In this document: positions 18,502 to 39,097 of the stretch, piece after piece
How positions within the stretch are numbered: the stretch's first letter is position 1
Layout: the number at the start of each line of letters is the position of its first letter
Source of the DNA: Nostocales cyanobacterium
GTDB lineage: Bacteria; Cyanobacteriota; Cyanobacteriia; Cyanobacteriales; Nostocaceae
NCBI GenBank assembly: GCA_004292695.1
Contig: RDXV01000010.1
Location: 1-57,649, forward strand
Direction: 5' to 3'
DNA length: 57,649 bases
Made by a program: the position numbers and the translations under genes
Notes under the pieces: generated by a model
What the model saw: only the letters and a program-made list of their open reading frames with translations
Told to the model about the DNA's origin: nothing
Database searches by the model: none

Positions 18502-18506
18502 AAGGT

Positions 18507-23106: not shown

Positions 23107-23607
<501 letters not shown>

Positions 23608-23744: not shown

Positions 23745-25107
23745 ATGACTCCTCCAGACAACAAGAACATTGTTGAAGAAAGAAAAGAACTAATTCAAGA
23801 AGTTCTTAAAGCTTATCCAGAAAAAGCTGCTAAGAAACGTGCAAAACATTTAAACGTACACGAAGAAGGTAAGTCTGATTGTGGTGTTAAATCTAACATC
23901 AAATCCTTACCTGGTGTAATGACCGCTCGTGGTTGTGCTTATGCAGGTTCTAAGGGTGTGGTTTGGGGTCCTATTAAGGACATGATTCACATCAGTCATG
24001 GTCCTGTAGGTTGCGGTTACTGGTCTTGGTCTGGTCGTCGTAACTACTACTTAGGTACTACAGGTGTTGATACCTTCGGTACTATGCACTTCACTTCTGA
24101 CTTCCAAGAACGCGACATCGTGTTCGGTGGTGACAAGAAGTTATTGAAAATGATCCAAGAGATCGATGAGTTATTCCCCTTAAACCGTGGTGTTTCCGTT
24201 CAATCTGAATGTCCCATCGGTCTAATTGGTGATGACATCGAAGCTGTTTCTAAGAAAGCTGCTAAGGAAATTGGTAAACCTGTAATTCCTGTACGTTGCG
24301 AAGGTTTCCGTGGTGTGTCTCAGTCTTTGGGTCACCACATCGCTAACGACCAAATCCGTGACTGGGTATTCCCAAGAGCAGATCAAGCTAAGAAAGATGG
24401 TACTCTCAAGTTTGAATCTACTCCTTACGACGTAGCAATCATCGGTGACTATAACATCGGTGGTGACGCTTGGGCAAGCCGTATCTTATTAGAAGAAATT
24501 GGTTTGCGTGTTGTTGCTCAGTGGTCTGGTGACGGTACTATCAATGAGATGTTGTTGACTCCTAATGTGAAGATCAACCTCATCCACTGCTATCGTTCTA
24601 TGAACTATATCAGCCGTCACATGGAAGAAGCTTATGGTATTCCCTGGATGGAATATAACTTCTTCGGACCTACCAAGATTGCTGAATCTTTAAGAGCGAT
24701 CGCTGCTAGATTCGATTCTAAGATCCAAGAAAACGCTGAAAAAGTAATTGCTAAGTACCAACCCACAATGGATGCGATCACTGCTAAGTATCGCCCCCGT
24801 TTGGAAGGTAAGACAGTTGCAATGATGGTTGGTGGTTTACGTCCCCGTCACGTTGTACCCGCTTTCCAAGACTTAGGTATGAAGTTAGTAGGTACTGGTT
24901 ATGAGTTCGCTCATAACGACGACTATAAACGTACTACTCACTACATCGAAAACGGTACTATCGTTTATGACGACGTAACCGCTTTTGAATTTGAAGAGTT
25001 CATCAAACACTTGAACCCTGACTTAGTTGCTTCTGGTGTGAAAGAGAAGTACGTATTCCAAAAGATGGGTCTTCCTTTCCGTCAAATGCACTCTTGGGAT
25101 TACTCCG
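23745..25107 (+). CDS. nifD: nitrogenase MoFe protein alpha NifD, 5' segment (codons 1-454), interrupted
   Basis: Canonical NifD up to ...[10 protein letters not shown], then the divergent tail [10 protein letters not shown] and a stop at 25139. Confidence 0.9.
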
Positions 25108-25367
25108 AACTTGATAATATTGGTTCAAAGATGCGATAATTTCAGGTTTTTTAATTGGCGATTTTTGAGATTTTAATTTTTAGCCTAAATTGATTTCATT
25201 ATGTTCTATCATAACATTGTTTATAAATAACTGCAAGTATTAAACTTCTGATTTTATCAAGGTGTTAGGGAGTTGTAAGTTTTTGATTTTTGGTGATTTG
25301 GTTAATTTTGATAACTTTTTGTGGTTGGTTTTTCTTAGACTAAAATCCTGACAATAATCAATCACAT

Positions 25368-25421
25368 CCTGTAAATCCTAAAATCCTGGACATCCTGATT
25401 CAGACAAATACTGTATAATAC
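25368..25421 (+). promoter_or_regulatory. ~55-bp repeat module CCTGTAAATCCTAAAATCCTGGACATCCTGATTCAGACA with TGTATAAT extended -10
   Basis: One of five copies (25368, 35664, 53389 inverted, 55611, 56242); here ~40 bp upstream of a Uma2 gene. Confidence 0.6.
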
Positions 25422-25458
25422 TAATTAACCAAAATTTCTATATTGGGAGTAAAAAAAT

Positions 25459-26043
25459 ATGCCCATCATGACAATTAAAGATGTGGAAAAACTCCAAACC
25501 GCTATCAATGAAGCTGGTTTAGATTATGATGTAGAATTAGAAAACGGAAATATTTCTATTATGGGTCCATCGGATATAGTTTCTAGTGAAATTGGTATTC
25601 TTTTTAGCCGACTATTAGCAAACTGGGTTTATCCCCGTCGTTTAGGAAGAGTTTTTGATTCTGCGGGTGGTTTTATTTTACCAGATAGCAATTTAACTGC
25701 TCCCGATGTTTCTTTTGTCCGTGCTGCAAGGTTGCGCCAAAGTCCCCGTTATTTTGGTGAACTTGTACCTGATTTAGTAGTAGAAATTAAATCTCAAAGT
25801 GATAGAATTAAAACCTTAGAAAAGAAAGTTATCAATTTTATTAATTTGGGTGCAGTGGTGGGAATTTTAATTGATCCTGATGAAGAAACTGTAACTGTTT
25901 ATCTTTCTCAAGGTGAACCTGTTGTTTTTCAAAACAATGATATTTTAACTTTACCTGAACTTTTACCTGGTTGGGAATTACCTATTTCTGAATTATGGCC
26001 TCCTGTTTTTACTGAAGAAGAAATACAAGATGCAGGACAATAG
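25459..26043 (+). CDS. Uma2-family putative endonuclease
   Basis: DVSFV...PDLVVEIKSQSD PD-(D/E)XK-like core. Confidence 0.7.
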   Translation: MPIMTIKDVEKLQTAINEAGLDYDVELENGNISIMGPSDIVSSEIGILFSRLLANWVYPRRLGRVFDSAGGFILPDSNLTAPDVSFVRAARLRQSPRYFGELVPDLVVEIKSQSDRIKTLEKKVINFINLGAVVGILIDPDEETVTVYLSQGEPVVFQNNDILTLPELLPGWELPISELWPPVFTEEEIQDAGQ

Positions 26044-26108
26044 AAGGATTCAGCTACAAGTAATCAGTTAATAAAAACAAGAATCAAGATTGATAACTAT
26101 ATTGTTTC

Positions 26109-26699
26109 TTATTCAAAAACTACACCTTCATAAAGTATGTCAATAGGAAATTCAAATTCAATACTAGAGAAAGTGATCATATCCCCTATTGTATAGGGAT
26201 AGTAAAGCCACATTCTTCCTTCTCCACGACAATATCTTTCAACATATATTTTTTCAGAATCAATTAAAATATATTCTTGTAAACTAGGAATTGTTAAATA
26301 ATATCTGAATTTTTCCTCTCTATCTCTATTACTTGTACTAGGAGAAAGCACTTCAACAATTAATTTAGGATATTGAATAAATTTCCGAGCTTTGATATCT
26401 TCAGGATGACAACTAACAATTAAGTCAGGGTAAAAATAAGGACTTTGAGGACTAACTTGAACTTTCACATCTGACACATTAACTCGACAACCTTGAGGAT
26501 GGAGATGAGAATATAAAGGTCTGTAAAGATTGAGCGCAATATCATTATGGGGAATTGTACCACCTGTCATGGCAAAAACTTCACCGTTGATATATTCATA
26601 ACGAATATCTTGGTTAAGTTCCCATACAAAATATTCCTCAATGGTCATTTTTTCTGGTTGTTGAGATATTGCTATCATATCAAACTCCAATTTTTTCAA
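26109..26699 (-). CDS. Uma2-family putative endonuclease
   Basis: MTIEEY...ELNQDIRYEYINGEV...YPDLIVSC...LIVEVLSPST. Confidence 0.7.
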   Translation of the reverse strand: MKKLEFDMIAISQQPEKMTIEEYFVWELNQDIRYEYINGEVFAMTGGTIPHNDIALNLYRPLYSHLHPQGCRVNVSDVKVQVSPQSPYFYPDLIVSCHPEDIKARKFIQYPKLIVEVLSPSTSNRDREEKFRYYLTIPSLQEYILIDSEKIYVERYCRGEGRMWLYYPYTIGDMITFSSIEFEFPIDILYEGVVFE

Positions 26700-26773
26700 G
26701 TTGGTTTTAATTATAGCAATAAAAAATAATAGATCCCCGAATTCTTTAATAACTTAGGGATCTTTATGTTTAA

Positions 26774-28369
26774 TTACTCTCGATTCATTCTAATCAAATC
26801 TGTTAAAATACTATCCAAACTCCCATTAACTTGAATCTTCTCAATCTTCTCCGCAATACGTTCTAAAACCTCCAATTCTTTTAATCTTAACGCCACAGGA
26901 TTATCTTCCATTACCTTAGCAGTATTTAACATACTCCTAGTAGCAGCAGTTTCTTCTCTGCGTCTGACAACATTTGCTTGAGCAGCTTTTTCTGCTTCTA
27001 CAACTTTACTCAAAATCTCCTTAATTTCCCCAGGTAAAATTATATCTTTTACCCCCACAGAATCAACTTCAATTCCATATTCAGACGCTTTTTGTCTAAT
27101 ATATTCTGAGATGCTTCTATCAATCGCTCCCTTATCTTCTAATAGTGCATCTAATGTTCTTTCTCCCACAGCACCGCGCAGAGCAAATTGCAATTCTTTG
27201 TACAAGAAACCTGTAATATCTGATAATCCATTTTTTGCTTTTAAGGGATCTTGAATGCGGAAACCAGCAGTTAAATTTAACCGCAAGGGTACTTTATCTT
27301 TAGATAAAATTTCTTGTCCAGAAACTTCCATATTTTGTAATCTTAAATCAATAGTTTCTGTCTTAAATGATCTGCCAAATATCCACCAAGCATTTACCCC
27401 CGGTTGTAATTGGGTTTGAAATTCTTGATTAATATATAATAATCCAATGTGTTGAGATGGAACTTGACAAATATGTACACAACTACGAATCAAGTTTTTT
27501 ACTTCTGTTGTTCCTTCCACCAATTCAGCAATTAATCGGGGTGATAATTTAGCATCTGTGCTAATATCAATTATTTCTACTTCTACACCTTGCAAAAATA
27601 ATTTTCTGCTTGTAGGTGGTAAAATTGCAATCACTTTTTTACGATATCTGACAACTGCTACCTGAAAATCTAAAAGTTCCACATTTTCACAATAAGCAGC
27701 AACAAATTCAGGATGTTTTTCAATTAAAATATCCTCTAAGGGAAAATCAGGATTAGGTAAAATGCGGCTAATTGTACGTACAGAAACATCTCTATCTATT
27801 GCCCAAAAAGCATATTCACCTTTTTCTAAAGGTTTTACAAAATTGTTCTGTAAATACAACAAACCAATCTCATATTCAGAAATTTGAAATTTTTTAATTC
27901 CATATAAACTAATTCCCCGCAATTGTTGGACAAATATATCGGGTAATTGCAAGGTTTCATCTAAGTTTAAAAAATGAGATTCTACCTCGATAAAACCTCG
28001 CCAAAATGCCCGCAATTGATTAGATCCAATACTTAACCAAGTTTGTCCCCAATGTACTAACGCTGTTTGATTAAATCCGGTTCTAATAATTAATAAATGT
28101 TCTTGAATTTCATTAGCGTGGGATGAACGCAATAATAATTCTAAGTTGTCAATTTCCGCTTCTGGTTCATTGAGATTATATATTCTTACGTTCCAATAAC
28201 GACCAAAATAAGTATATTCACCGGGTGATAATATTTTCTTAAAATCACTGCGGTGATATAAAATGCCAATTTCGTTAGGTTTGATGTAAAAATTTTTCCA
28301 CATAATACTTTGAATCAGTAATTTTATGGGTTGATACCACGAAAGCAATAGGTTTTTTGCACTTTTCAT
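26774..28369 (-). CDS. SPFH/band-7 domain protein with three tandem SPFH-like modules
   Basis: Three repeats each opening with E-IG(I/L)LY...PGE...W, and a C-terminal coiled-coil typical of stomatin/flotillin-like proteins. Confidence 0.55.
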   Translation of the reverse strand: MKSAKNLLLSWYQPIKLLIQSIMWKNFYIKPNEIGILYHRSDFKKILSPGEYTYFGRYWNVRIYNLNEPEAEIDNLELLLRSSHANEIQEHLLIIRTGFNQTALVHWGQTWLSIGSNQLRAFWRGFIEVESHFLNLDETLQLPDIFVQQLRGISLYGIKKFQISEYEIGLLYLQNNFVKPLEKGEYAFWAIDRDVSVRTISRILPNPDFPLEDILIEKHPEFVAAYCENVELLDFQVAVVRYRKKVIAILPPTSRKLFLQGVEVEIIDISTDAKLSPRLIAELVEGTTEVKNLIRSCVHICQVPSQHIGLLYINQEFQTQLQPGVNAWWIFGRSFKTETIDLRLQNMEVSGQEILSKDKVPLRLNLTAGFRIQDPLKAKNGLSDITGFLYKELQFALRGAVGERTLDALLEDKGAIDRSISEYIRQKASEYGIEVDSVGVKDIILPGEIKEILSKVVEAEKAAQANVVRRREETAATRSMLNTAKVMEDNPVALRLKELEVLERIAEKIEKIQVNGSLDSILTDLIRMNRE

Positions 28370-28689
28370 GATCTAAGTGACTTGTAATATTGCATATTAC
28401 AACTATAATAGAAAATTTTTTAAAACTCTGCAAGTGTATATTTTCACAGTGAATAGGTGGACAAAAGCTACTCAAAAACTGGATGAAGATAGTTATTTTC
28501 ACTGAAATACTTGGTAGTAATTCGGATCAAGATAACTAGCAGATATAGCGTTCATTTTGCTACTATTTGAAGGATATACTCAAGTTAGAGAGAAAGGCAG
28601 TTATGCAGACTTATTAACTGTTGCTATTAAACTTCACTCTAGCGAGTTAGGAATAATAGCGAAAAATATACACCACAGAGTTAGTGATA

Positions 28690-28770
28690 ATGCGGAGTCG
28701 AACCGCAGGATTTCTCCTTTACCATTTGCTACCTTAAAAGGGTAGTGTCCTTTAACCTGGACGAGGGCTG
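28690..28770 (-). pseudogene. degenerate tRNA-like remnant (UUU anticodon-arm-like, acceptor stem unpaired)
   Basis: Reverse complement shows a GTCC/GGAC D-stem, a CTACC-CTTTTAA-GGTAG anticodon arm and a GCGG-TTCGACT-CCGC T-arm, but no acceptor pairing. Confidence 0.35.
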
Positions 28771-28771
28771 G

Positions 28772-28861
28772 TTGAAAGTGTAGGATTTGAACCTACAAGC
28801 AGGATGTGAACCTGCAATTTGATCTTGAGTCAAACGCCTCTACCAATTGGGCTAACTTCCG
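28772..28861 (-). tRNA. tRNA-Leu(CAA)-like class II tRNA
   Basis: Manual fold of the reverse complement: acceptor CGGAAGT/ACTTTCA (6 of 7 pairs), 3-bp D-stem with a long D-loop, anticodon arm TTTGA-CTCAAGA-TCAAA (anticodon CAA), long variable hairpin GCAGG-TTCACAT-CCTGC, and T-arm GTAGG-TTCAAAT-CCTAC. Confidence 0.5.
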
Positions 28862-28863
28862 GG

Positions 28864-28935
28864 TTTTTGATACAGGATTTGAACCTGTTCACATTGATTG
28901 AGAGTCAACTGCTCTACCAATTGAGCTAATCAAAA
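28864..28935 (-). tRNA. tRNA-Glu(CUC)-like (atypical all-A/U acceptor stem)
   Basis: The reverse complement folds as a 72-nt cloverleaf: TTTTGAT TA GCTC AATTGGTA GAGC A GTTGA CTCTCAA TCAAT GTGA ACAGG TTCAAAT CCTGT ATCAAAA A. Confidence 0.45.
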
Positions 28936-29102
28936 GATAGCATAATCGGCGGTATACGCTAATACTACTGTATGGCGCACCAGTTAGGTATACAGAACCT
29001 AAGCTATAGCCCATTGTGCTGTAATAATTGTAGCATATTTACAAATGTAAAGGTAAGTGGAGTTAATTTATTTACTGTTTTATGGTGATACTACTATTGC
29101 TC

Positions 29103-29636
29103 CTAACATATTTTTTTCCACTCTTTTGCTTTTTTATCTATTTCTTGAATAAAACTGTCTTTACCATCCATATAACTATTGATATCGTGAGGATATTTTT
29201 TAGCTAGTTCACACTTTAAGTGACTATATTTATGTGCATCTTCTGGATGAGAAATCATGTAATCTCGAAATGCTAAATGGCGTTCTATTTGCACAGAACC
29301 AACTTCAAAAGCATGAAGATGATGTGTTCTAATTCCAGCTTGGTTGTGTTTACGGAAATAACGACGTTTTGGTATTCCAAACTCACCCATATTTTCATAA
29401 CCTAACAATTCTAATTGTACACTTTGTTGATCAATTTTATTAATGTCTTTCACTTCTAGTAAAATGTCTATAATTGGTTTAGCATGAATACCTTCAATCG
29501 CTGTACTACCAATGTGATATACTGCGATTAAATTCTCATCAAGTGCAATTTTCATCTTTTGTGCTTCCTCAAAAAATTCGTTTTTCCAGTTAGGGTTATG
29601 GGGAAATACTTCTACTTTCATATTTAGATTGTTCAT
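29103..29636 (-). CDS. GrpB-family nucleotidyltransferase-fold protein
   Basis: VYHIGSTAIEGIHAKPIIDILLEV typical of GrpB (UPF0157). Confidence 0.65.
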   Translation of the reverse strand: MNNLNMKVEVFPHNPNWKNEFFEEAQKMKIALDENLIAVYHIGSTAIEGIHAKPIIDILLEVKDINKIDQQSVQLELLGYENMGEFGIPKRRYFRKHNQAGIRTHHLHAFEVGSVQIERHLAFRDYMISHPEDAHKYSHLKCELAKKYPHDINSYMDGKDSFIQEIDKKAKEWKKIC

Positions 29637-29716
29637 GGATATCCATGTTTCAATTCAATGTTTTAATTTGGAGTTAAATTTTGGGGTTTGATAATTGAAA
29701 AACTAAATTTTCTTGG

Positions 29717-30997
29717 TTATTGGTAAATAGGAATTTGAATTGTAAATTTTGTACCTTTGCCAAAGGTTGAATCACAATTTAGTTTACCTCTATGTCTTTC
29801 AGTAACAATTTGATAACTAATAGACATTCCTATTCCTGTTCCTTTACCTACAGGTTTGGTGGTAAAAAAAGGATTCATTATGTTTTGTTTGATATCTTCT
29901 CTCATACCTATACCATTATCTGCAATAATAATTTCTACATATTGAGAATCTAAAAAGCTAGTTTTGATATTAATTACTCCTTGATAGTCTTCATTGGTTT
30001 CTCCTAATTTATAGTGATTTATATTTTGTTCTATAGCATCAATAGCATTGACTAAGATGTTCATAAATACTTGATTCATTTCTCCTGCATAGCACTCTAA
30101 TAATGGTAGTTTTCCATAATCTTTTACTACTTCAATATCCAATAAGCGATGTTTTAAGATCATTAATGTACTATCAATACCTTCATGGATATCTACGGAC
30201 TTAAATTCTGCTTCATCCATCCGGGAAAAAGTTCGTAATGATAAAACAATTTGTCGGATACGTTGAGTACCAACACTCATAGAGTTAATCATTTTTGGTA
30301 AATCTTCTTTGATGTATTCTAAATCAATTTCATCTATGAATTCTTGAATTTCTGCATGATCAGATGAATTATGTCTTTGATATAATTCAATCAGTTTTAT
30401 TAAGTTATTTGCGTAATCTTGGAAAGGTTCAATATTTCCATGTATAAAGTTTATGGGGTTATTAATTTCATGAGCTACTCCTGCTACTAATTGTCCCAAA
30501 CTTGACATTTTTTCAGAATGGATCATTTGAGTTTGAGTTGCTTTTAATTCTTGTAATGTTTTTTCTAAATCTTCTGCTTGTTGACGCAGTTTTGCTTCTA
30601 ATTTTTTACGATTATTAATATCTCTAGCTACTACAACTACACTATCCTCACCCATAGCGGCTATACTAGCTTCAAACCAAATTTCTTGATCAGCAATAGG
30701 TAAACTATATTCTATTTTTAAAGTTTTTTTGGTTGCAAGTGCTTCTTGAATACAAGAGAAAACACGATCTGCAAAATCTTGAGGTAGAACATCATGCATG
30801 GTTTTACCTAATATTTCCATAGGAGGTTTATATAGAGAAGGAGCGCTACTAGGGGCAATTTTTAAATATCTTCCTTCGGAACTTAAAACCAGAATTACAT
30901 CTTGAATTGCATTGAATAATGCTAACAATTCTATTTGAGAATTTGTCACTTCTGATGTATGGTGTTGAGATTCCATATCAACCGATTCTAAACTCAT
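29717..30997 (-). CDS. sensor histidine kinase (PAS - HisKA - HATPase_c)
   Basis: H-box AHEINNP and N/G1/G2 boxes (NAIDA, DNGIGM, GTGIGM); N-terminal PAS-like region; no transmembrane segments. Confidence 0.8.
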   Translation of the reverse strand: MSLESVDMESQHHTSEVTNSQIELLALFNAIQDVILVLSSEGRYLKIAPSSAPSLYKPPMEILGKTMHDVLPQDFADRVFSCIQEALATKKTLKIEYSLPIADQEIWFEASIAAMGEDSVVVVARDINNRKKLEAKLRQQAEDLEKTLQELKATQTQMIHSEKMSSLGQLVAGVAHEINNPINFIHGNIEPFQDYANNLIKLIELYQRHNSSDHAEIQEFIDEIDLEYIKEDLPKMINSMSVGTQRIRQIVLSLRTFSRMDEAEFKSVDIHEGIDSTLMILKHRLLDIEVVKDYGKLPLLECYAGEMNQVFMNILVNAIDAIEQNINHYKLGETNEDYQGVINIKTSFLDSQYVEIIIADNGIGMREDIKQNIMNPFFTTKPVGKGTGIGMSISYQIVTERHRGKLNCDSTFGKGTKFTIQIPIYQ

Positions 30998-31231
30998 AAT
31001 TTTTACCTTTTGATTAATACTTATGTAAAAATACTGTGGGGGTTTAATGAATCGAAATCTTGAGTTTTAATACTGTCAATTGTACACAGTGTCCTAATAA
31101 TATCACTTGTAAATATTACTAAAAATTTTTTCTCCAATCCTTTGCTTTTATATATATTTCTTTAATAACCCCATCTTTTCTATCCTGTTTACCAAGATTG
31201 TATTTCATAAAATATCCTCATCTATGATTGC

Positions 31232-31584
31232 CATTTATCCACTGTATCCATAGCATGATTTAACCATTGCTGATACCATTTTAGAAAGTCTTTTTGTACT
31301 GGTGATTTATGATCAAATTCCGGCAACCAACCCTCTCCAGCAACCCAGATTTTACCACATTGCTCACCACTAATAACTAATATCGTCATCCAACCACATC
31401 CTCGATGACTGACAGGAAAACAACCATTAAGAGGATAATCAGCTTCTATAAAATAATACTCATCTGTTTCTACATTTATTCTTCATTTATGTTTCTGTGA
31501 ACCAAAAACTGCATGATGAAATCGGGGATCTTTTTCTTGCAGTAGCGCTAATTTTTGGCGAATTTCTTGAAAAATGGCTCTCAT
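31232..31584 (-). pseudogene. frameshifted gene remnant (two ORF fragments)
   Basis: MRAIFQEIRQKLALLQEKDPRFHH...stop, then a shifted frame continuing ...GCGWMTILVISGEQCGKIWVAGEGWLPEFDHK...; no intact ORF. Confidence 0.4.
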
Positions 31585-31600
31585 TTTATTTTCTTTGCCT

Positions 31601-32179
31601 TTAATCAGGATAAGCTAAACCTGTGCGTGGATCACGAATATATAAACCTAGTGTTAAACTCCGCATCACTTCATCCCAAATAGGTGTTAATTGTTCTGCT
31701 TGATCCGCCCAATAATCAAAGGTGATTAAACACTGAATATTTGAACCTAAACCTACACAAATTCTAGAATATGCTTCTCTAGGTTCTGCTTGAGTGTCAA
31801 TAAATTTAATTTGTCCCCATATTATTTTGGCGGTTTGCCGTTTAACTTGAATTATTTCCCCTGTTTCTATGACATCTCTACTATCATCTTCAATGACTTT
31901 TTTTAAGGTACGTTTGAGGGGAAATAATGTCCAATCATTGGGGGGTAAATGATTATAGGAAACTTCTAAACAACAATCATCATCGGGGGGTTGTTTATCT
32001 CTAAATTTAAAGGATTTTTCTTGGGGTTCAAATACCCAATTTTGGGGAACGTTAAACCGTACTGCACCCCTACCCGCGACAAATATTTTATAATCTTCCG
32101 GTCCTTCCCAGTGATGGTTCGGATCTAATTCTAGGGTTTCTTTAATCCATTGCAGGTTATTTTTTTTACGTTTAGACAT
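31601..32179 (-). CDS. hypothetical protein
   Basis: 192-aa ORF with no family assignment. Confidence 0.4.
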   Translation of the reverse strand: MSKRKKNNLQWIKETLELDPNHHWEGPEDYKIFVAGRGAVRFNVPQNWVFEPQEKSFKFRDKQPPDDDCCLEVSYNHLPPNDWTLFPLKRTLKKVIEDDSRDVIETGEIIQVKRQTAKIIWGQIKFIDTQAEPREAYSRICVGLGSNIQCLITFDYWADQAEQLTPIWDEVMRSLTLGLYIRDPRTGLAYPD

Positions 32180-32528
32180 AGGTTACATTTTTGCTTTCTG
32201 TTTTTGATGCTACATTCCTATCATGATAGCTCAATGGTCAATTGAAATTCAATGCTGTATCATATAATAATATCTGAATTTTTCACATTTATCTTTACTT
32301 TATTGGTTATGCGGGAAGAACGCACTTTAAGGTTTAATTTAGAAAAGTTAATAAATTTGCGAGTGTTGATGTCTTGGAGATGATAAATAACGATAAAATA
32401 ATGAATATAATGGCGTAAAAAGTAGAAAAGAGATTTCCTAACTATGGAACATCTCTATATCTCTACAGCTAATAGCTAGTTATATTTAGTTTTACGAACT
32501 GATTATTTTCCTGATGAAACAGGTAATC

Positions 32529-33161
32529 TTAATCACTGTAGGGCAGGGAAGAATGGTGTGCAACAATACGAAGTTTGCCATCCTTATCTTTAACAAATTT
32601 CCAGGTTTTATCTACTGTAGTTACTTTACCATTTTTGTCAGTCATTGAGACATTACCCATTGTTGTAGCCACGCTACCAACGATGAAGATTCCAGCGTTG
32701 CGAACTTCCACCTTTCGCCATCCTTTGAGAGCAAAACCGGTATCATCAGGAAAAGAAGAATTGCCACCCACGAAATAGGACAATGCACCTTCCTTTGTTG
32801 TGCGGAAAGTGTTTGGTGCTTCTGCTAGAGTTGGTTTGAACAGCACTAATCCGTACTGATAACCATAGGCTTGATCTATAATCTGGCTGGCTAATGCCTT
32901 AGCTGCGGCTTTTCCCTGCTGATCGTGGGTGGTGGAAATAGCTACTAATGCGTCACCCCAGGCTTTTTGGGCTGCTAAGACTTCAGCCTCAGTGATAGTC
33001 ATGTTGACTACTGAAGTTTTGGGAGTTGATGAGGTTGAACTAATGATGATGTTATTAACTTCAGCATTGGCTATTGACGGAGCAGACGCTAATAAAGCTA
33101 TGGCGGTAGCAGTGACAGGAAGATTAATTTTCATATTTATAGAAGAAGTCATCATTAACAA
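32529..33161 (-). CDS. secreted hypothetical protein (signal peptide)
   Basis: The N-terminus ends in an ATAIALLASAPSIANA signal-peptide-like cleavage region. Confidence 0.5.
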   Translation of the reverse strand: MLMMTSSINMKINLPVTATAIALLASAPSIANAEVNNIIISSTSSTPKTSVVNMTITEAEVLAAQKAWGDALVAISTTHDQQGKAAAKALASQIIDQAYGYQYGLVLFKPTLAEAPNTFRTTKEGALSYFVGGNSSFPDDTGFALKGWRKVEVRNAGIFIVGSVATTMGNVSMTDKNGKVTTVDKTWKFVKDKDGKLRIVAHHSSLPYSD

Positions 33162-33538
33162 AACTTAATGAACACAGCAAACCAGATTAAATATCTGGTG
33201 AAAGTTATCGCAGAGATAATTTATAACTTTATCTCTACTATATCTATAGATGCCTATAGATGTTTATTGTTTCAATAAAATCTATTGAAATGTTAATACT
33301 TCTTACAAAGTGCAATAACATTTACTTATTGTTTGTTAGATAAAACTGATGGTTAGTTGTCACATCTTATAGAGAAGGTATTCCTTGTTAGGATTTATAC
33401 GCGCGTTAGAAAAGATAACGGTTCACGTAGCATTTCCCAGAAAGGGTATCACCCCTGGTGCTGCGCTCCGCGCGATCGCTCTCAATTCCATAATCTTCTT
33501 CACTCAGATCAAATAATTACAGCTAATTAAGGTTTGCA

Positions 33539-33958
33539 TTATTTTCTGGTTGGACACACTTCAAAAGCTAAATCTGCACGGTAAAAACACACATCAAACT
33601 CTAAAAAGAAGTTCATACGCCCTAATAATAAAGGTACATCATCAGATAAACACCAAGCAAAAACTAAGCGAACAGGCTCAAATGATCCAATATGAGCAGA
33701 TACCAGTAAACCTCTTGCCTCTACAGGTGCTAAATTACCAGCTAACATTACAGAAGTAGTTTGTTCTTCCCAAATTGCACCTAGCTCAATACCTACACTG
33801 TATGGCAGAACGTTAACACTTGCACCAGTATCCAATAAACCGGAAACATCCACTGATAAGTTACGATAAGTAAGTGTTAATGGTAACTTTGGTAAGGCAT
33901 CAGGTATACCAAAGGTATCATATCCTTCTGTAAAGGAAAATCTTTGAGGTTTATTCAT
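33539..33958 (-). CDS. retropepsin-like aspartic protease family protein
   Basis: LDTGASVNVLP active-site motif (D-T/S-G-A). Confidence 0.6.
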   Translation of the reverse strand: MNKPQRFSFTEGYDTFGIPDALPKLPLTLTYRNLSVDVSGLLDTGASVNVLPYSVGIELGAIWEEQTTSVMLAGNLAPVEARGLLVSAHIGSFEPVRLVFAWCLSDDVPLLLGRMNFFLEFDVCFYRADLAFEVCPTRK

Positions 33959-34175
33959 GTTCCTTTTGTTTATCAGCTTCTAGTAGTTGGGCAAGTTGAT
34001 GTGCTGCTGCATGAGAATTTAGCGGAGACACAATAGAATAAGTTGCTCCCTGTTCTAATGATGGTTCTTCATCTTTAGCTAATTCTGATACTAGAAACTG
34101 CATAACTTTTAGCTTATCTGCACGAGTTAAATTTCGCAGGGTGGGAAATAGTTCTATAGCGTTCATAATTGTCAT
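33951..34175 (-). CDS. hypothetical protein co-transcribed with the retropepsin-like gene
   Basis: 74 aa; stop overlaps the downstream start (ATGA). Confidence 0.4.
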   Translation of the reverse strand: MTIMNAIELFPTLRNLTRADKLKVMQFLVSELAKDEEPSLEQGATYSIVSPLNSHAAAHQLAQLLEADKQKEHE

Positions 34176-34386
34176 AGTAGAGAGAATTTCATATTTCTAT
34201 TTTTCCACAATTTTCATGATTTTGCGTTAGTGAAGCTTAATGTGCGATCTCATTTGTTATAAGTTAGTGGATTGTTTTGAGTTTTCTTGATTTTATCATT
34301 GGATATTTAGGATGAGGCGATCGCTCTTTGGGGTTTGGGGTTTAGGAGGTGCGATCGCATCCCCAAATTCCCCAAATGTAATCGAA

Positions 34387-34698
34387 CTATAGCGGCATGA
34401 ATAAGCGAGGAAAAGAACCTGATGGACAAAAAGCAACTAGGGTATCACCTTGTCCTATACCACCTGGAATTGATTTAGCTTGTGCATAAATAGTTGACCC
34501 ATCAATTTTTTGAACTATATGCAAGCCATTCTGAGCGTTGTAGCCTTGATACTTAACTACAAACCATTCTCTACGTTTATCAAACTCATCATTAATCCAT
34601 TGTTTTAACCGATGATTAGTTCTATTTATTTCAGCTTGCTGTTCAAGACGTTTTTCAGCATCATAGGAATTATAATCGTCATAGTTCATAACTATCAC
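34387..34698 (-). CDS. hypothetical protein
   Basis: 103-aa ORF. Confidence 0.4.
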   Translation of the reverse strand: MIVMNYDDYNSYDAEKRLEQQAEINRTNHRLKQWINDEFDKRREWFVVKYQGYNAQNGLHIVQKIDGSTIYAQAKSIPGGIGQGDTLVAFCPSGSFPRLFMPL

Positions 34699-34730
34699 CT
34701 ATTTTTTGCTAATAGTACAAATATATTGTA

Positions 34731-35495
34731 TTATTCTAGTTTTAGTAAGTCAAGTATTTGCAAAAACTTTCCGCCAAAATTATTACATTCCAATTTCCCC
34801 GGAAAACTTATTGGAACTGGAAAACTACTGGAAACTTTAGTAGTTGAACCAAGTTCTAATGAAATGAGTCCAACAGTGATGAAACCTTGAAGTAAATGCC
34901 AGTTTTGCTTTACTTGATGTTTTGAGTCAAGCATATCTGGATGAGACGAGAGATAAAAACCAGGTTGAGGGTGATATTTTTCTGAATAGTAAAATTCTCT
35001 GAGAATGATTAAGTTATTCAAATCAATATTTTGCAATATATAGGAATATTGGCTAAATTGCTGATAATTTATTTCATCTTTTATGTAGGCAATAAAAATT
35101 TTGCACAAAGCTTCTGCTTTAGAAACCTGGTCGAACATACTCAAGGCGTTAATGAGTTCCTCACCTAATTTTTGTTGAAATTCTGGATTCGTAGATTTAT
35201 CTTCTATATTTTTTTTAAATGTGTCATCAGCATCTTTACATCCTGATATGAATAAGAGTAGTTTTTTCATAAATAAGTAATCACGTACTGCAAAACCAGT
35301 TTTGATAAGTGAATAAAATGATTTAATGACTGGAATTTTACTAAAAGTTTCGTTTTGAATGTTTTCTAACAACTTATCATTCAATACTTCAGCTAAATTT
35401 AAAGCAGTATCTTTCATTCCTGCCTCAGATATAGTTTTTATTAGGGATGTTCCCAAAGATAAATCTTTTTCATTTTTTTTATTTTGGTTATTCAT
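34731..35495 (-). CDS. hypothetical protein, AT-rich gene
   Basis: 254 aa, K/N/I-rich; A+T content well above the neighbouring genes. Confidence 0.4.
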   Translation of the reverse strand: MNNQNKKNEKDLSLGTSLIKTISEAGMKDTALNLAEVLNDKLLENIQNETFSKIPVIKSFYSLIKTGFAVRDYLFMKKLLLFISGCKDADDTFKKNIEDKSTNPEFQQKLGEELINALSMFDQVSKAEALCKIFIAYIKDEINYQQFSQYSYILQNIDLNNLIILREFYYSEKYHPQPGFYLSSHPDMLDSKHQVKQNWHLLQGFITVGLISLELGSTTKVSSSFPVPISFPGKLECNNFGGKFLQILDLLKLE

Positions 35496-35663
35496 GTTCG
35501 TGTCAGCAATATTTTAATGATTATTTAGTGACTAAATTATAACATCTCAAAAATTATCCCTTAACAAAAATAAAATTACTTTATAAACTAAAGCTGCTAG
35601 TTATCTACTCCTAGCTGGTAATGGGTAATTACTGATAGATAGTAATGAAATTCCGGTTTTCAT

Positions 35664-35710
35664 CCTGTAAATCCTTAAATCCTGGACATCCTGATTCAGA
35701 CAGTTTCCCT
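35664..35710 (+). repeat. copy of the ~55-bp CCTGTAAATCCT(T/A)AAATCCTGGACATCCTGATTCAGACA module
   Basis: Sequence identity with the copies at 25368, 55611 and 56242. Confidence 0.6.
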
Positions 35711-35801
35711 AAATAGCAACTTACTGTATATATAAATATCTGTCTCCCAAAACCTATTTATCAGGTTGGGTTTCACCTAAATCCACCCAACCCACAGATA
35801 A

Positions 35802-36785
35802 TTAATTATCTCCTTGACTTGATGCTAACAACTGCTCAAAATCCTCCAACGAAGCAATAGTAATTGCCTGTTTAAAGATACTTTTTAGCAATTGCAAATC
35901 CTCCAGAGAATTAATCTGATTCTTCAACTCATCTGATACATTGCCAAATCTTGTTTCTAGAATTTCAATCACATTTTCACGGGAATTTTTGATCATCCCA
36001 TCAATTTCAAAGCTAGTTAAAAATGGCATACGTTTTCCCTCCTCATAACGGTTTAATTCAGTCTTGAAATCAGATTGCAGTATTGGGGGTAATGTCATCA
36101 TCCATTCAATAAACCGGAATAATTGACGAATCATTTCTCCGGTATAACCCAAGTCATAAAGTCGTTTCACTAGACTTAATTTTAACTGAAATCTTTGTTG
36201 TGAATTACCTTGAGTGGCTTGGGTTTGCAAATGTGCCATAATGATGATAGCAAAAGGATTATTACTTTGTGCTAGGGTATCATGGCTATAATCTAATAGT
36301 TTAACACTGGGAAATTGTAAATTAGTTGTAAACCCCCACTGACTATAACCATAAGATGCTGGTTTCCAATTGGGGTTATCATCTCCTAAAACCGCGAAAC
36401 TAAAAACTTTAAGACGATAGCGATCAAATAAACGATGATTATAAATATACATCCTTTCTGCAAAATCGTCTTGTTCTTGTCCTTGTATTTCTATGTGAAT
36501 CAGAACTAACGCTTTTTCTCCATTTCGCAGGGTGACTTTTACCAGTTTATCCGCTAAACGTCTTCCTGTTTCTGCATCTCTAATTAGTTCTTGTAATTCG
36601 GTGTCTAGGGTTTCATATCCTTTTTCCCAGTCAATATCTTGATAAACTTCAGGAAAACAGTATTCTATGAATTGTTCAAGATAAACTGTAATCGCTTCTT
36701 TCCATGCGCTGTCATAATCTGAGTTTGGTTGGTAGTTCATCCCTGGAAATATATGTTTTGATGTCTTGTAATTATAACATATCAA
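35802..36785 (-). CDS. Rpn/YhgA-like PD-(D/E)XK nuclease family transposase
   Basis: AWKEAI...LVLIHIEIQGQ...YIYNHRLF core plus a C-terminal DUF4351-like tail; related to ORF 52169..52969. Confidence 0.6.
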   Translation of the reverse strand: MICYNYKTSKHIFPGMNYQPNSDYDSAWKEAITVYLEQFIEYCFPEVYQDIDWEKGYETLDTELQELIRDAETGRRLADKLVKVTLRNGEKALVLIHIEIQGQEQDDFAERMYIYNHRLFDRYRLKVFSFAVLGDDNPNWKPASYGYSQWGFTTNLQFPSVKLLDYSHDTLAQSNNPFAIIIMAHLQTQATQGNSQQRFQLKLSLVKRLYDLGYTGEMIRQLFRFIEWMMTLPPILQSDFKTELNRYEEGKRMPFLTSFEIDGMIKNSRENVIEILETRFGNVSDELKNQINSLEDLQLLKSIFKQAITIASLEDFEQLLASSQGDN

Positions 36786-36788
36786 ATA

Positions 36789-38090: not shown

Positions 38091-38254
38091 CTTGGGTTAT
38101 GCGATCGCCTAGCGTACTGAAAGCATTCTGATCAAAATAAACAATAAAAATTAATTCAAAACCCCAATTCATAGATTTTGAATCTTAGCTTTTTAATTGT
38201 TGATCTAGACTATACTTAAACCCAAAATAAATATGTTAAATATAAACAGTATTT

Positions 38255-38905
38255 TTATTCCCAATAATTTTCCCAGTCATTGTTAAAAGATTCCTTCAAT
38301 CTTTGCAAATAAGCATAAGTTTTAATTTTCACCATCCAAAGATTATCATAATTATCCCCTCCTTTACAAATAACACCTTCATTCACACCATATTTCCCCT
38401 GACGCACATCATGAATAAATTGCCCTGTCAACTTACCACAATAAACAACCCGTGCAATATTAAAATCCCGAAAATCATTAATAAAATGTTCAGTTGTAAC
38501 AATACCTTGCTCAGTTTGTACATCAAATAATACAAGTTTTTTAGGATCATCATGTTTGTGCATCCCCGCAAAAGAATTAACTCCAAAAAACTCAGTAAAA
38601 ACAGTAATTTCAGGACATTGATAATTTGGATGTTGTAAAAATAAACTTGCTAAATTTTTAGCAAAATCTCTGATAAAAATACCAGGTGCATCTTCTAAAC
38701 CTGGATGTGCTGCATTAAATTCCGCAATACCCAGATCATCTAAATTAAACCTATCACGGCGTGTACCAAAAGCATACCAACCTAGCTCAAATTCCCAAAC
38801 CCAATGTAGATTAGTACCATCATATTTTTCAAAAGCAATACATTTTTGCCAAGGACAATCTTTACTATCAGGAATTTTCGGATAAGCAAGTTTAACTTTT
38901 ACCAT
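38255..38905 (-). CDS. ATP-dependent RNA/DNA ligase-like nucleotidyltransferase
   Basis: Covalent nucleotidyltransferase motifs: KYDGTN (motif I), FTEFFG (III), LFDV (IV), EGVICKG (V). Confidence 0.55.
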   Translation of the reverse strand: MVKVKLAYPKIPDSKDCPWQKCIAFEKYDGTNLHWVWEFELGWYAFGTRRDRFNLDDLGIAEFNAAHPGLEDAPGIFIRDFAKNLASLFLQHPNYQCPEITVFTEFFGVNSFAGMHKHDDPKKLVLFDVQTEQGIVTTEHFINDFRDFNIARVVYCGKLTGQFIHDVRQGKYGVNEGVICKGGDNYDNLWMVKIKTYAYLQRLKESFNNDWENYWE

Positions 38906-39029
38906 TTTGGGTTGTTTATTTTATATAAATTATCTCCTCTTATGGTGCGGGCATCTTAGCAGCCAAATGTATGTGTCCATCACCACAATCAATCAACAAT
39001 ATATCCTGTAAATCCTCAAATCACAGTTA

Positions 39030-39060: not shown

Positions 39061-39097
39061 TGGAAAAAACCATTAAACCATCAATAAAAATACTCCG

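What the first reader, a model, noticed from the sequence alone, without database searches (positions are those of the whole stretch)
28690..28935. Tightly packed tRNA-like array (Glu-CUC-like, Leu-CAA class II, degenerate third) inside the nifD element, near an RNA ligase gene
On the minus strand three tRNA-shaped units abut with 2-nt spacers. A 72-nt unit folds as a cloverleaf with anticodon CUC and an all-A/U acceptor stem. A 90-nt unit has class-II features: 3-bp D-stem, long variable hairpin and anticodon CAA. A third unit keeps the D-, anticodon- (UUU) and T-arms but has no acceptor pairing. Packed, partly degenerate tRNA arrays are known on Nostocales plasmids and mobile DNA, so finding one inside a developmentally excised nif element is unusual. 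The same element encodes an Rnl-type RNA ligase-like protein (38255..38905) ~9 kb away, which could be functionally linked, for example to tRNA repair or anti-defence.
Basis: partly seen in the sequence, partly recalled or inferred. Interest (0 to 1): 0.7.

Follow-up and report, generated by a model that had tools for sequence, protein, structure and literature searches.

The report
Stress-linked tRNA-like RNA module, nifD element
The "tRNA array" is real, but it is the tRNA-shaped front end of a roughly 650-base structured RNA locus that precedes the slipin gene across cyanobacteria, and this nifD element carries a complete extra copy of that module.

Summary
Two cloverleaf genes are real: U1 28862-28935 (68.5 bits) and U2 28769-28861 (49.5 bits), both on the minus strand. 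The third unit (28685-28768) fails both tRNA detectors. The array does lie inside a ~14-kb nifD element (25097-39098).

It is not a degenerate mobile-DNA array of the plasmid L-array kind. It is one copy of a conserved non-coding locus: promoter, "Up" domain, U1, U2, U3, then a ~250-nt structured RNA. In every homologous locus with enough flank, this locus sits directly upstream of slipin, or of ydeI plus slipin.

Stems covary strongly, while the anticodon triplets differ between loci and some loops are not 7 nt. U2's "class II arm" is a 19-nt duplicate of its T arm, found only in this copy.

In Anabaena PCC 7120 the downstream operon alr0739-alr0740 is a TrcR target. It is induced by translation inhibitors together with rtcB and the tRNA L-array, and the intergenic forward-strand probe is co-regulated.

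The 216-aa ORF does belong to an RNA-ligase family, but it is not syntenic with the module anywhere else.

Best reading: selected, non-decoding tRNA mimics belonging to a translational-stress module. The homology part is firm; the mechanism is inferred.

The parts
29024..29051 (-). Promoter-like site P1 upstream of the RNA locus. It has a -35-like TTTACA and the conserved extended -10 block ATGCTACAAT (29027-29036).
   Evidence: The consensus scan finds the site. The block (A/G)TGYTAMAWT is conserved at the same place in 16 loci. No transcription start has been mapped.
28936..29026 (-). 'Up' domain: a conserved structured leader with core GGTTCTGTATACCTAACTGGTGCGCCA...AGCGTATACCGCC. It contains two hairpins and, in most loci, an outer helix.
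   Evidence: BLASTN matches to L010, L013 and the PCC 7120 locus L011. RNAalifold predicts 20 pairs, 5 with compensatory changes. The outer helix is remodelled in the window copy.
28862..28935 (-). U1, a tRNA-like cloverleaf. The anticodon-position triplet is CUC (28900-28902) and the acceptor stem is UUUUGAU/AUCAAAA.
   Evidence: ARAGORN and Rfam, 68.5 bits. On the family alignment A3, 98.2% of cells pair and 8 pairs change on both sides. Pair 1:72 is G-C in 11 sequences, U-A in the window and C-G in L010.
28769..28861 (-). U2, a tRNA-like cloverleaf. The triplet is CAA (28825-28827), positions 1 and 72 are mismatched (C/A), G3 pairs with U70, and CCA is encoded. It carries an extra hairpin at 28799-28815 that duplicates the T arm.
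   Evidence: ARAGORN and Rfam, 49.5 bits. The duplication is shown. On family alignment A2, 95.2% of cells pair, 6 pairs change on both sides, positions 1:72 are unpaired in 15 of 19, and CCA is in register in 15 of 19.
28685..28768 (-). U3, a tRNA-derived domain with no acceptor stem. It has a D-like hairpin (28747-28762), an anticodon-like hairpin (28729-28745, loop CUUUUAA), a GGAGAAAUCC hairpin, and a T-arm-like hairpin (28691-28707).
   Evidence: Sequence and fold. It gives no tRNA-model hit. Its 5' half is nearly invariant across loci, and the closing pair of the anticodon-like stem switches between C-G and U-A. The three central loop bases are the most variable columns.
28430..28682 (-). 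'D-RNA': a multi-helix structured domain closed by CUCUGUGGUGUAUA paired with UAUACACUUGC. It contains the invariant block CTAACTTGAGTAT.
   Evidence: RNAalifold on 14 loci predicts 65 pairs, 29 with compensatory changes. 92.5% of cells pair, and 0 of 500 shuffles reach the observed value on any of the five measures. There is no Rfam match.
28382..28433 (-). Promoter P2 of slipin with a TrcR-box-like operator. It has -35 TTGCAG (28428-28433), -10 TATTAT (28405-28410), and the palindrome TTGTAATAT-GCA-ATATTACAA (28382-28402).
   Evidence: A box within one mismatch of TGTAGTAT sits at a fixed offset after GCAGAGT in 16 of 19 loci, compared with 42 of 327 background windows. In the window the offset is shifted by 11 nt. 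The TrcR consensus and EMSA on the alr0739 promoter come from PMC10272220.
26774..28369 (-). Slipin (SPFH/Band 7) gene, the constant downstream partner of the RNA locus.
   Evidence: Pfam Band_7, E 1.6e-27. It is 76-84% identical to cyanobacterial slipins. In every locus with enough flank, block D is followed by slipin or by ydeI plus slipin.
25097..39098 (.). The nifD interruption element (~14 kb) that carries the module. Its XisA-like recombinase is at 36789-38090(-) and the RNA-ligase-family gene is at 38255-38905(-).
   Evidence: The nifD profile covers positions 1-434 of 466 before the element, and the C-terminus resumes at 39099. The core repeat is shown. For the recombinase; for the ligase family.

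Best explanation
The three units are the tRNA-shaped domains of a conserved cyanobacterial non-coding locus: promoter, Up domain, U1, U2, U3, then a ~250-nt structured RNA. This locus always lies directly upstream of the slipin gene or the ydeI-slipin operon. The nifD element carries a complete and apparently intact paralogous copy, made of the RNA locus, a TrcR-box-like promoter and slipin. The same cargo occurs in at least three other nifD elements.

Selection maintains U1 and U2 as full cloverleaves. Their anticodon triplets are not conserved between orthologous loci, and some loops are not 7 nt. I therefore read them as non-decoding tRNA mimics rather than isoacceptors.

Inferred mechanism:
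1. The locus is transcribed from its own promoter as one precursor.
2. RNase P-type cleavage at the directly abutting U1/U2 junction, plus 3' trimming to the encoded CCA, releases tRNA-sized RNAs.
3. These RNAs act in the TrcR-controlled translational-stress response that also induces slipin, RtcB and the tRNA L-array.
4. Their most likely role is as decoys or sensors for factors that bind or cut tRNA anticodon loops.

Shown here: homology, synteny, structural selection, variability of the anticodon positions, and the location in the element. Taken from the literature for the PCC 7120 orthologue: stress induction and TrcR control of the downstream operon, and co-regulated accumulation of an intergenic forward-strand transcript. 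Inferred: processing, the lack of decoding, and the decoy or sensor role.
For: Homology:
- BLASTN of window 28370-29102 gives 76.6% identity over 627 nt to L010 (E 2e-126).
- It also matches L013/L014 (E 1e-33), L016, and the PCC 7120 chromosome locus L011 in several collinear blocks.
- A conserved 20-mer retrieved 19 further metagenome loci with the same layout.

Synteny:
- Slipin, or ydeI plus slipin, follows the RNA in all loci with enough flank.
- L010, L016 and L026 share the nifD border TGGGATTACTCCGAAC.

Structural selection:
- U1: 98.2% of cells paired, 8 pairs changed on both sides.
- U2: 95.2% of cells paired, 6 such pairs.
- D-RNA: 65 pairs, 29 compensatory, 0 of 500 shuffles reaching the observed values.
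- The window copy itself keeps the D-RNA closing helix through compensatory changes.

Evidence against decoding:
- ARAGORN assigns 14 or more different anticodons at the U1 and U2 positions.
- It also reports a 4-base and a 2-base 'anticodon'.
- Five U1 orthologues lack U33 and have 5-6-nt loops.
- U2 positions 1:72 are unpaired in 15 of 19 sequences.
- In PCC 7120, U1 is reduced to an acceptor helix plus remnants.
- L017 and L022 are 95.9% identical overall, yet differ at 5 of the 7 U3-loop bases.

Stress link:
- alr0739 and alr0740 are up 71-fold and 42-fold in the trcR deletion, TrcR binds their promoter, and they are induced by chloramphenicol (PMC10272220).
- Probe alr0738_igFwd has the largest fold change in a set with rtcB, the L-array, all8564, alr0739 and alr0740 (PMC9938897 supplementary table 2).
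- The TrcR-like box is conserved at P2 in 16 of 19 loci, including the window.
- The authors of PMC8421152 themselves proposed that array tRNAs could act as sponges for VapC-type RNases.
Against: - There are no expression, processing or aminoacylation data for this MAG, or for the RNA itself in any organism.
- The microarray probe lies somewhere in a 678-nt intergenic region that also holds the short alr0739 5' UTR. Induction of the RNA locus itself is therefore not proven.
- In the window, U1 and U2 have canonical 7-nt loops with U33 and a purine at position 37, and their tRNA scores are high. They could be charged and could decode.
- Most U2 orthologues keep CAU or NAU triplets, which may reflect a real decoding constraint.
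- No partner sequence that covaries with the variable loops was found.
- PADLOC gives no defence hit for slipin.
- The sample is about 20 loci found through one conserved 20-mer, which favours well-conserved copies.
Confidence: 0.5

Rival explanations
1. U1 and U2 are working supernumerary tRNAs, in effect a two-gene mini-array. They would be induced under translational stress and would decode GAG (as Glu) and UUG (as Leu, or as Ala through G3-U70), as the L-array tRNAs of PCC 7120 do. The anticodon differences between species would be real identity switches.
For: - The covariance scores are high, and the window's loops have canonical U33 and R37.
- CCA is encoded.
- The anticodon stem is under structural selection.
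- 23 of the 26 L-array tRNAs are charged in vivo.
- The neighbouring operon belongs to the same regulon.
- Many U2 copies keep CAU.
Against: - Orthologous positions carry 14 or more different triplets.
- Several loops have 5, 6 or 8 nt or lack U33.
- The 1:72 mismatch in 15 of 19 U2 copies and the variable discriminator do not fit any single aminoacylation identity.
- U1 is eroded in PCC 7120 while the rest of the locus is kept.
- The units are embedded in a larger covarying RNA.
Confidence: 0.2
2. The whole region is only a cis-acting leader of slipin. The tRNA-like domains would serve as RNase P/Z processing or stability signals, or as an attenuator for read-through from P1, and the released pieces would have no function in trans.
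For: - The linkage and orientation relative to slipin are invariant.
- No intrinsic terminator is predicted on the RNA's strand between the array and slipin.
- The 3' strand of the D-RNA closing helix overlaps the -35 of P2.
- Operons that join tRNA genes and mRNAs are known (established knowledge, e.g. the E. coli tufB operon).
Against: - P2, with its own TrcR box, lies downstream of the RNA, so the stress-induced mRNA need not contain the leader.
- A processing signal alone would not need a selected anticodon stem, a conserved U33/A37 frame or an encoded CCA.
- In PCC 7120 another gene (ydeI) is inserted between the RNA and slipin.
Confidence: 0.2
3. One reading: a degenerating tRNA array of the kind carried by Nostocales plasmids and mobile DNA, acquired by the nifD element and functionally coupled to the element's Rnl-type RNA ligase for tRNA repair or anti-defence.
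For: - The array is inside the element.
- The ORF at 38255-38905 belongs to an RNA ligase family.
- The third unit lacks an acceptor stem.
Against: - The units show no specific similarity to L-array tRNAs.
- The module is chromosomal and syntenic with slipin in PCC 7120 and many other genomes.
- All units are under purifying and compensatory selection.
- No ligase lies near any other copy, and ligase homologues sit elsewhere without the RNA.
- Viral contigs gave no copy of the module.
Confidence: 0.04
4. The units are pseudogene debris or integration scars: remnants of tRNA genes used as attachment sites, without function.
For: - U3 lacks an acceptor stem.
- U2 in the window has an internal duplication.
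- tRNA genes are common integration targets (established knowledge).
Against: - Both-side compensatory changes occur in every helix, and 95-98% of cells pair across loci that are only 72-80% identical overall.
- The 5' half of U3 is nearly invariant.
- No integrase is adjacent in the chromosomal loci.
Confidence: 0.03

Closest known systems
The trn L-array of Anabaena sp. PCC 7120 (delta plasmid; Santamaria-Gomez et al. 2021, PMC8421152; TrcR regulon, PMC10272220)
   Same: Both are tightly packed, co-oriented tRNA-shaped genes outside the housekeeping set, and some members encode CCA. The gene next to the orthologous RNA locus (alr0739-0740) belongs to the same TrcR translational-stress regulon as the L-array and rtcB. 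A TGTAGTAT-type box overlaps the -10 of the adjacent promoter.
   Different: This module has 1-3 units rather than 26. It shows no specific sequence similarity to L-array tRNAs. It is inherited in synteny with slipin rather than patchily by horizontal transfer, and no HNH endonuclease is adjacent. Its anticodons are not a decoding set. It is fused to two further structured RNA domains.
YrlA / bacterial Y RNAs with a tRNA-like domain (Rfam RF02553; rsr-yrlBA-rtcBA operon of Salmonella)
   Same: Both are non-coding RNAs that embed a tRNA-like module in a larger structured RNA, and both are linked through regulation to an RtcB-type RNA-repair and translation-damage response.
   Different: The only match is sub-threshold (22.5 bits against a gathering score of 69, E 0.03) and lies across the U1/U2 junction of L025. 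No Ro60/Rsr gene was seen in the loci examined. Here the tRNA-like units are complete cloverleaves with anticodon arms, not a Ro-binding stem.
Operons that join tRNA genes and mRNAs, and RNase P-processed leaders (e.g. E. coli thrU-tyrU-glyT-thrT-tufB)
   Same: tRNA-shaped units lie upstream of, and in the same orientation as, a protein-coding gene with no evident terminator between them. Abutting units would be separated by RNase P/Z cuts.
   Different: In the known operons the tRNAs are housekeeping decoders with fixed anticodons. Here the triplets vary, a separate regulated promoter lies between the RNA and the gene, and additional covarying domains are present.
Class II tRNA-Leu(CAA) and tRNA-Glu(CUC), as named by ARAGORN
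   Same: Cloverleaf fold, 7-nt loops with U33, and discriminator A73 in the window copies.
   Different: The long arm is a duplicated T arm unique to this copy. Orthologues carry other triplets. U1's body resembles Lys/Met-type tRNAs (plus my own recollection of E. coli tRNA-Lys). U2 has a 1:72 mismatch.

Membership tests
Canonical tRNA (Rfam RF00005) | The cloverleaf scores above the gathering threshold of the covariance model. | tested here: met
   U1 scores 68.5 bits and U2 49.5 bits against a threshold of 29. U3 gives no hit at E<=10.
Canonical tRNA (decoding isoacceptor) | The anticodon and the 7-nt loop with U33 are conserved among orthologues. | tested here: not met
   Orthologous U1 and U2 carry 14 or more different triplets. 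ARAGORN reports 4-base and 2-base 'anticodons'. Five U1 copies lack U33 and have 5-6-nt loops.
Canonical tRNA (decoding isoacceptor) | The RNA is aminoacylated and used on ribosomes. | not testable with these tools
   This needs acid-urea Northern blots and polysome analysis.
Class II tRNA-Leu | A long variable arm is an ancestral, conserved feature of the gene family. | tested here: not met
   The arm is a 19-nt-period copy of the T arm. It is present only in the window sequence among the 19 aligned U2 copies.
Cyanobacterial L-array (trn operon type) | A long array (up to 43 genes) of mostly chargeable tRNAs, homologous across L-arrays. | tested here: not met
   There are 2-3 units. The best global alignments to the 24 delta-plasmid tRNAs are weak and non-specific.
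Cyanobacterial L-array (trn operon type) | Patchy, horizontally transferred distribution, often with an HNH endonuclease neighbour. | tested here: not met
   The module is syntenic with slipin in all loci, including the PCC 7120 chromosome. No HNH gene is adjacent.
Cyanobacterial L-array (trn operon type) | A promoter with tandem TGTAGTAT-type repeats overlapping the -10, giving TrcR control. | tested here: inconclusive
   The box is clear at P2, in front of slipin or ydeI, in 16 of 19 loci. At the array's own promoter P1 there are only 2-mismatch resemblances.
TrcR translational-stress regulon | The gene is derepressed in the trcR deletion or induced by translation inhibitors. | not testable with these tools
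   This rests on the literature only. alr0739 and alr0740 are up 71-fold and 42-fold. The intergenic probe alr0738_igFwd is co-regulated. Nothing is known for the MAG.
YrlA / Y RNA-like | A match to RF02553 at the gathering score, and linkage to rsr (Ro60). | tested here: not met
   The match is 22.5 bits against 69. There is no hit in the window. No TROVE/Ro gene appears among the called genes.
tmRNA | A tRNA-like domain with a tag reading frame. | tested here: not met
   ARAGORN reports no tmRNA and there is no Rfam hit.
nifD interruption element (XisA type, position-1355 variant) | It interrupts nifD near codon 454 at the GGATTACTCCG core and carries a XisA-like recombinase at the nifK-proximal end. 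| tested here: met
   The recombinase is at 36789-38090. The position matches the variant described in PMC4874684.
RNA ligase family PF09414 (ORF 38255-38905) | Nucleotidyltransferase motifs I, III, IV and V, and a family-model match. | tested here: inconclusive
   The motifs are visible. The window protein itself gives no Pfam or NCBIfam hit at E<=0.01. Homologues that are 65-74% identical carry PF09414 and the name. No solved relative was found by sequence.

The most novel reading that the evidence does not exclude
Many cyanobacteria carry a dedicated RNA of about 650 nt next to slipin. Its three tRNA-shaped domains keep a perfect tRNA body, while the anticodon-position triplets turn over faster than the surrounding sequence. 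They would act as baits or decoys, or as damage sensors, for anticodon-loop nucleases such as the VapC-type toxins induced in the TrcR translational-stress response. The structured 3' domain would couple that signal to slipin expression. Copies on nifD elements would be cut out of the chromosome in heterocysts, giving a cell-type-specific dose.
Probability: 0.15. Interest if true: 0.85.

Novelty: new variant of a known kind. Interest (0 to 1): 0.62.

Why it matters
tRNA genes inside a nif element turn out to be incidental. The underlying object is a conserved, strongly covarying, multi-domain RNA locus with embedded tRNA mimics. It has no Rfam family, and in the searchable literature it appears only as an unnamed "intergenic" microarray probe.

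The locus sits beside an operon that is among the most strongly derepressed genes of the cyanobacterial translational-stress regulon (TrcR, RtcB, L-array). That gives a concrete, testable candidate for how tRNA-shaped RNAs other than decoders take part in the response to ribosome-targeting antibiotics and tRNA-cleaving toxins.

It also shows that ARAGORN/tRNAscan calls at this locus (Glu, Leu, Asn, Trp, Cys and others) should not be counted as isoacceptors in cyanobacterial tRNA censuses. Finally, it shows that nifD elements repeatedly carry this RNA-slipin module as cargo.

Tried and rejected
- **Plasmid collection.** BLASTN of the array gave only generic enterobacterial tRNA matches over 57 nt and no Nostocales plasmid hit.
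- **PCC 7120 delta-plasmid array.** I fetched the array, but pairwise alignment to U1-U3 gave no specific relative.
- **Species-representative genomes.** A paired anticodon-arm pattern returned three unrelated Firmicutes/CPR loci.
- **First metagenome scan.** A U3 T-arm pattern found nothing.
- **Viral contigs.** Five scans gave no copy of the module. The 46 hits to a 17-mer and the 3 hits to the U2 5' pattern have none of the other blocks.
- **Logan contigs L001-L004.** They are identical to the window, so they carry no comparative information.
- **Partner for the variable U3 loop.** I searched each locus for a complementary sequence and found only scattered 5-7-mers at inconsistent positions. 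A kissing-loop model is not supported.
- **T-box-like pairing.** I looked for pairing between U2's NCCA end and a UGGN in the D-RNA, and saw no covariation with N73 on inspecting.
- **U3 acceptor-like pairing.** The UGGUAA/UUAUCA pairing in the window's MFE fold is not conserved in L010, L018 or L025.
- **PADLOC.** Slipin, YdeI, GrpB, the histidine kinase and the ligase gave no hit.
- **AlaRS identity.** G2-C71, G3-U70 and A73 are present in the window's U2, but only 4 of 19 homologues have G3-U70. I treat this as chance.
Full report
**1. The observation**

ARAGORN reports exactly two tRNA genes in the 57.6-kb window. Both are on the minus strand and they abut: 28862-28935 (anticodon CUC) and 28769-28861 (anticodon CAA). 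Rfam's tRNA model confirms both at 68.5 and 49.5 bits, E 7.5e-13 and 1.3e-7 for the whole window. The alignments to the model show complete cloverleaves.

- U1's acceptor stem contains one G-C pair.
- U2's 'class II' arm, GCAGGTTCACATCCTGC, is a tandem copy of the true T arm GTAGGTTCAAATCCTAC, 19 nt away (family D16). It shows up as an insertion that none of the 18 homologous U2 sequences has.
- U2 has a C1/A72 mismatch and an encoded CCA.
- The third unit (28685-28768) has D-like, anticodon-like, extra and T-arm-like hairpins but no acceptor stem. It is invisible to ARAGORN, and to the covariance model even at E<=10.

**2. Context in the window**

The window is a whole contig of a Nostocales MAG (proteins TAE61087-TAE61101). 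It carries nifB-fdxN-nifS-nifU-nifH-nifD-nifK-nifE-nifN.

nifD is cut after profile position 434 of 466, at the classic core GGATTACTCCG (25097-25107). Its C-terminus ([11 protein letters not shown]...) resumes at 39099, after AAAATACTCCG. This defines a ~14-kb element of the 'position 1355' variant described by Hilton et al. (PMC4874684). A XisA-like recombinase lies at 36789-38090.

The array is therefore inside the element. Its neighbours on the same strand are a PAS histidine kinase, GrpB and, downstream, a 531-aa slipin/SPFH protein.

**3. What the array really belongs to**

The slipin protein is 76-84% identical to a protein found throughout the cyanobacteria. I fetched the contexts of three homologues. 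Each has tRNA-like genes in the same place upstream of slipin, but with other anticodons.

BLASTN of the window's GrpB-slipin intergenic region gave three kinds of match:
- 76.6% identity over 627 nt in L010, which is another nifD element;
- collinear blocks in L013/L014 and L016;
- collinear blocks in the Anabaena PCC 7120 chromosome (L011, between alr0738 and alr0739).

A 20-mer conserved in all of these retrieved 19 more metagenome loci. All share one layout:
- a conserved extended -10 block;
- an 'Up' domain;
- U1, with acceptor GUUUGAU/AUCAAAC, absent or eroded in some loci;
- U2, with acceptor NGAAAGU/ACUUUCN followed by N-CCA;
- U3, beginning ACCCUGUCCGGGUCAAAAGAC-ACUAC...GUAG;
- a ~250-300-nt region with invariant blocks such as CUAACUUGAGUAU;
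- a second promoter, and then slipin, or ydeI plus slipin.

In every locus with enough downstream sequence the next gene is slipin or ydeI plus slipin. No locus other than the window has the ligase, GrpB or XisA. Four copies lie in nifD elements with the identical border TGGGATTACTCCGAAC: the window, L010, L016 and L026. The PCC 7120 copy is chromosomal, lying between the NTRC/ABC-permease genes and the ydeI-slipin-rbp-rpsU genes.

**4. Selection on structure, not on anticodons**

Structure counts on the family alignments:

| Domain | Sequences | Cells paired | Pairs changed on both sides |
|---|---|---|---|
| U1 | 13 | 98.2% | 8 |
| U2 | 19 | 95.2% | 6 |
| D-RNA | 14 | 92.5% | 29 of 65 |
| Up | 13 | not counted | 5 of 20 |

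- In U1, pair 1:72 is G-C in 11 sequences, U-A in the window and C-G in L010. The anticodon stem has four covarying pairs.
- In U2, the covarying pairs include three in the anticodon stem. Positions 1 and 72 are unpaired in 15 of 19 sequences, and CCA is in register in 15 of 19.
- For U1 and U2, slid-partner controls fall to 27-42% paired. No shuffle reaches the observed paired fraction or covariation score.
- The D-RNA folds into eight helices closed by a long-range stem. No shuffle out of 500 reaches the observed value on any of the five measures. The window copy keeps the closing stem through its own compensatory changes.
- The Up domain has two hairpins and an outer helix.

The anticodon-position triplets behave differently.
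- ARAGORN assigns U1 the triplets CAU, CGU, CCA, GCA, CGA, AAG, UAU and CUC, plus a 4-base and a 2-base loop call.
- It assigns U2 mostly CAU, but also UAU, GAU, GUU (PCC 7120), CAG, UAG, UCU and CAA.
- Five U1 orthologues have 5-6-nt loops. If the closing A-U pair is left open these become 7-nt loops, but with A33 instead of U33.
- In U3 the three central loop bases are the most variable columns of an otherwise almost invariant 40-nt stretch.
- L017 and L022 are 95.9% identical over 730 nt, yet differ at 5 of the 7 U3-loop bases.

These features do not fit housekeeping or supernumerary isoacceptors with a fixed decoding role. They also do not fit decaying pseudogenes. They fit tRNA-shaped RNA domains whose body is functional and whose 'anticodon' is free to vary, or is under diversifying pressure.

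Rfam 15 has no family for the Up, U3 or D-RNA parts. The only other near-match is a sub-threshold YrlA hit on the tRNA-like junction.

**5. Link to translational stress (literature, PCC 7120 orthologue)**

- alr0739 (YdeI) and alr0740 (slipin) are 71-fold and 42-fold up in a trcR deletion. TrcR shifts the alr0739 promoter in EMSA. Both genes are also induced by chloramphenicol, together with the trn L-array, rtcB and all8564 (PMC10272220).
- The TrcR box is TGTAGTAT, overlapping the -10. Tandem 9-nt repeats at that position confer the regulation (PMC8421152).
- L011 has GTGTAGTAT-GTGTAGTAT immediately upstream of alr0739.
- A box within one mismatch sits at a fixed offset after the D-RNA in 16 of 19 loci, against 13% of background windows. 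In the window it forms the palindrome TTGTAATAT-GCA-ATATTACAA at 28382-28402.
- In an independent microarray, the forward-strand intergenic probe after alr0738 has the largest fold change in a set that contains rtcB, the L-array, all8564, alr0739, alr0740 and asr0855 (PMC9938897 supplementary table 2). This is the only experimental hint that the RNA region itself is transcribed and co-regulated. The probe's exact position within the 678-nt spacer is unknown to me.
- The L-array authors observed cleavage of array tRNAs and induction of VapC-family nucleases. They suggested that extra tRNAs might act as sponges for such RNases, with RtcB repairing the damage.

**6. The ligase**

ORF 38255-38905 has the nucleotidyltransferase motifs KYDGTN, TEFFG, EGVICK and KIKT. 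It belongs to a widespread cyanobacterial 'RNA ligase family protein' group, many of whose members hit PF09414. The window protein itself gives no Pfam, NCBIfam or PDB sequence hit.

Its chromosomal homologues in Nostoc NIES-3756 and Kamptonema have neither tRNA-like genes nor the conserved block nearby. The proposed functional coupling therefore rests only on the two features sharing one 14-kb element.

**7. Mechanism and confidence**

I regard the following as established:
- the array is one copy of a conserved RNA-slipin module;
- the module is under structural selection;
- the anticodon positions are not conserved;
- the nifD element carries the whole module, including a TrcR-box-like promoter.

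I infer that the locus is transcribed as a precursor from the conserved upstream promoter. RNase P-type cleavage at the abutting U1/U2 junction would follow. In many loci the A of U1's CCA is also nucleotide 1 of U2, so one cut could make both ends. The resulting tRNA-sized RNAs would act as non-decoding mimics in the translational-stress response. A decoy or sensor role for anticodon-loop-directed factors explains the variable triplets best.

Rivals that remain open are true stress-specific decoders and a purely cis-acting leader.

**8. Limits**

- Only about 20 homologous loci were available, and they were found through one conserved 20-mer.
- The MAG's other contigs were not available, so I cannot say whether it also has a chromosomal copy.
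- No expression data exist for this organism.
- The literature search covers only the held open-access library, so an earlier description of this RNA elsewhere cannot be excluded.

Noticed in passing
window 15988-23607, 23745-39240, 39454-42796: nifH, nifD and nifK are each interrupted by an element. The nifH element is ~6.8 kb with a 473-aa recombinase at 21614-23035(-). The nifD element is ~14 kb. The nifK element is ~1.9 kb and holds essentially only a 462-aa recombinase at 40199-41587(-). The three XisA-like recombinases are about 50% identical to each other.
   Followed up: partly
window 33539-33958 (-): A 139-aa ORF inside the nifD element matches the PADLOC candidate defence protein PDC-M52B (E 4e-60). 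It also has a weak aspartyl-protease Pfam hit.
   Followed up: no
window 25459-26043 (+) and 26109-26699 (-); L010 6040-6675: Two convergent Uma2 (putative restriction endonuclease fold) genes sit between the left nifD border and slipin. A Uma2 gene that is 87% identical occupies a similar place in the L010 nifD element.
   Followed up: no
L021 + L026 (same contig NNBU01000017.1); L023 221-233 and 2006-2018: Some genomes carry two RNA modules in tandem about 1.8 kb apart. One is a U1+U2 type with CAU/CAU. The other is a U2-only type with the fixed loop UGUAUCG and a different U3. In NNBU01000017.1 the pair lies inside a nifD element.
   Followed up: partly
L011 6852-6905 (Anabaena PCC 7120, BA000019.2 about 860.69 kb): In PCC 7120, U1 is reduced to its acceptor helix (GTTTGAT...ATCAAAC) with a remodelled interior. 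U2 reads as 'tRNA-Asn GUU' but has a C1/U72 mismatch and C73, so this annotated-looking tRNA is probably not a housekeeping tRNA-Asn.
   Followed up: partly
window 28769-28861 (-): The window's U2 combines G2-C71, G3-U70 and A73. From my own knowledge this is the AlaRS identity set, and here it sits on a CAA anticodon. Only 4 of 19 homologues have G3-U70, so it is probably fortuitous.
   Followed up: partly
L013 / contig of P0034 (upstream of the RNA locus): In one chromosomal context the RNA-slipin module lies next to TIR-CHASE2, SLATT and LSDAT genes, which is a defence-island-like neighbourhood. This is not seen in PCC 7120.
   Followed up: no
L039 5080-7651 (Kamptonema formosum): The chromosomal homologue of the element's RNA ligase lies next to a CCA-adding enzyme gene and near NUDIX and Macro-domain genes. 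About 3 kb further on are NTRC and the ABC permease that flank the RNA locus in PCC 7120. No tRNA-like RNA was detected there.
   Followed up: partly
L030 292-366 of the extracted region: One locus has an extra, unrelated tRNA-like gene (anticodon AAU, acceptor TGCGGAA) inserted between U2 and U3. This suggests that units can be gained at this site.
   Followed up: no
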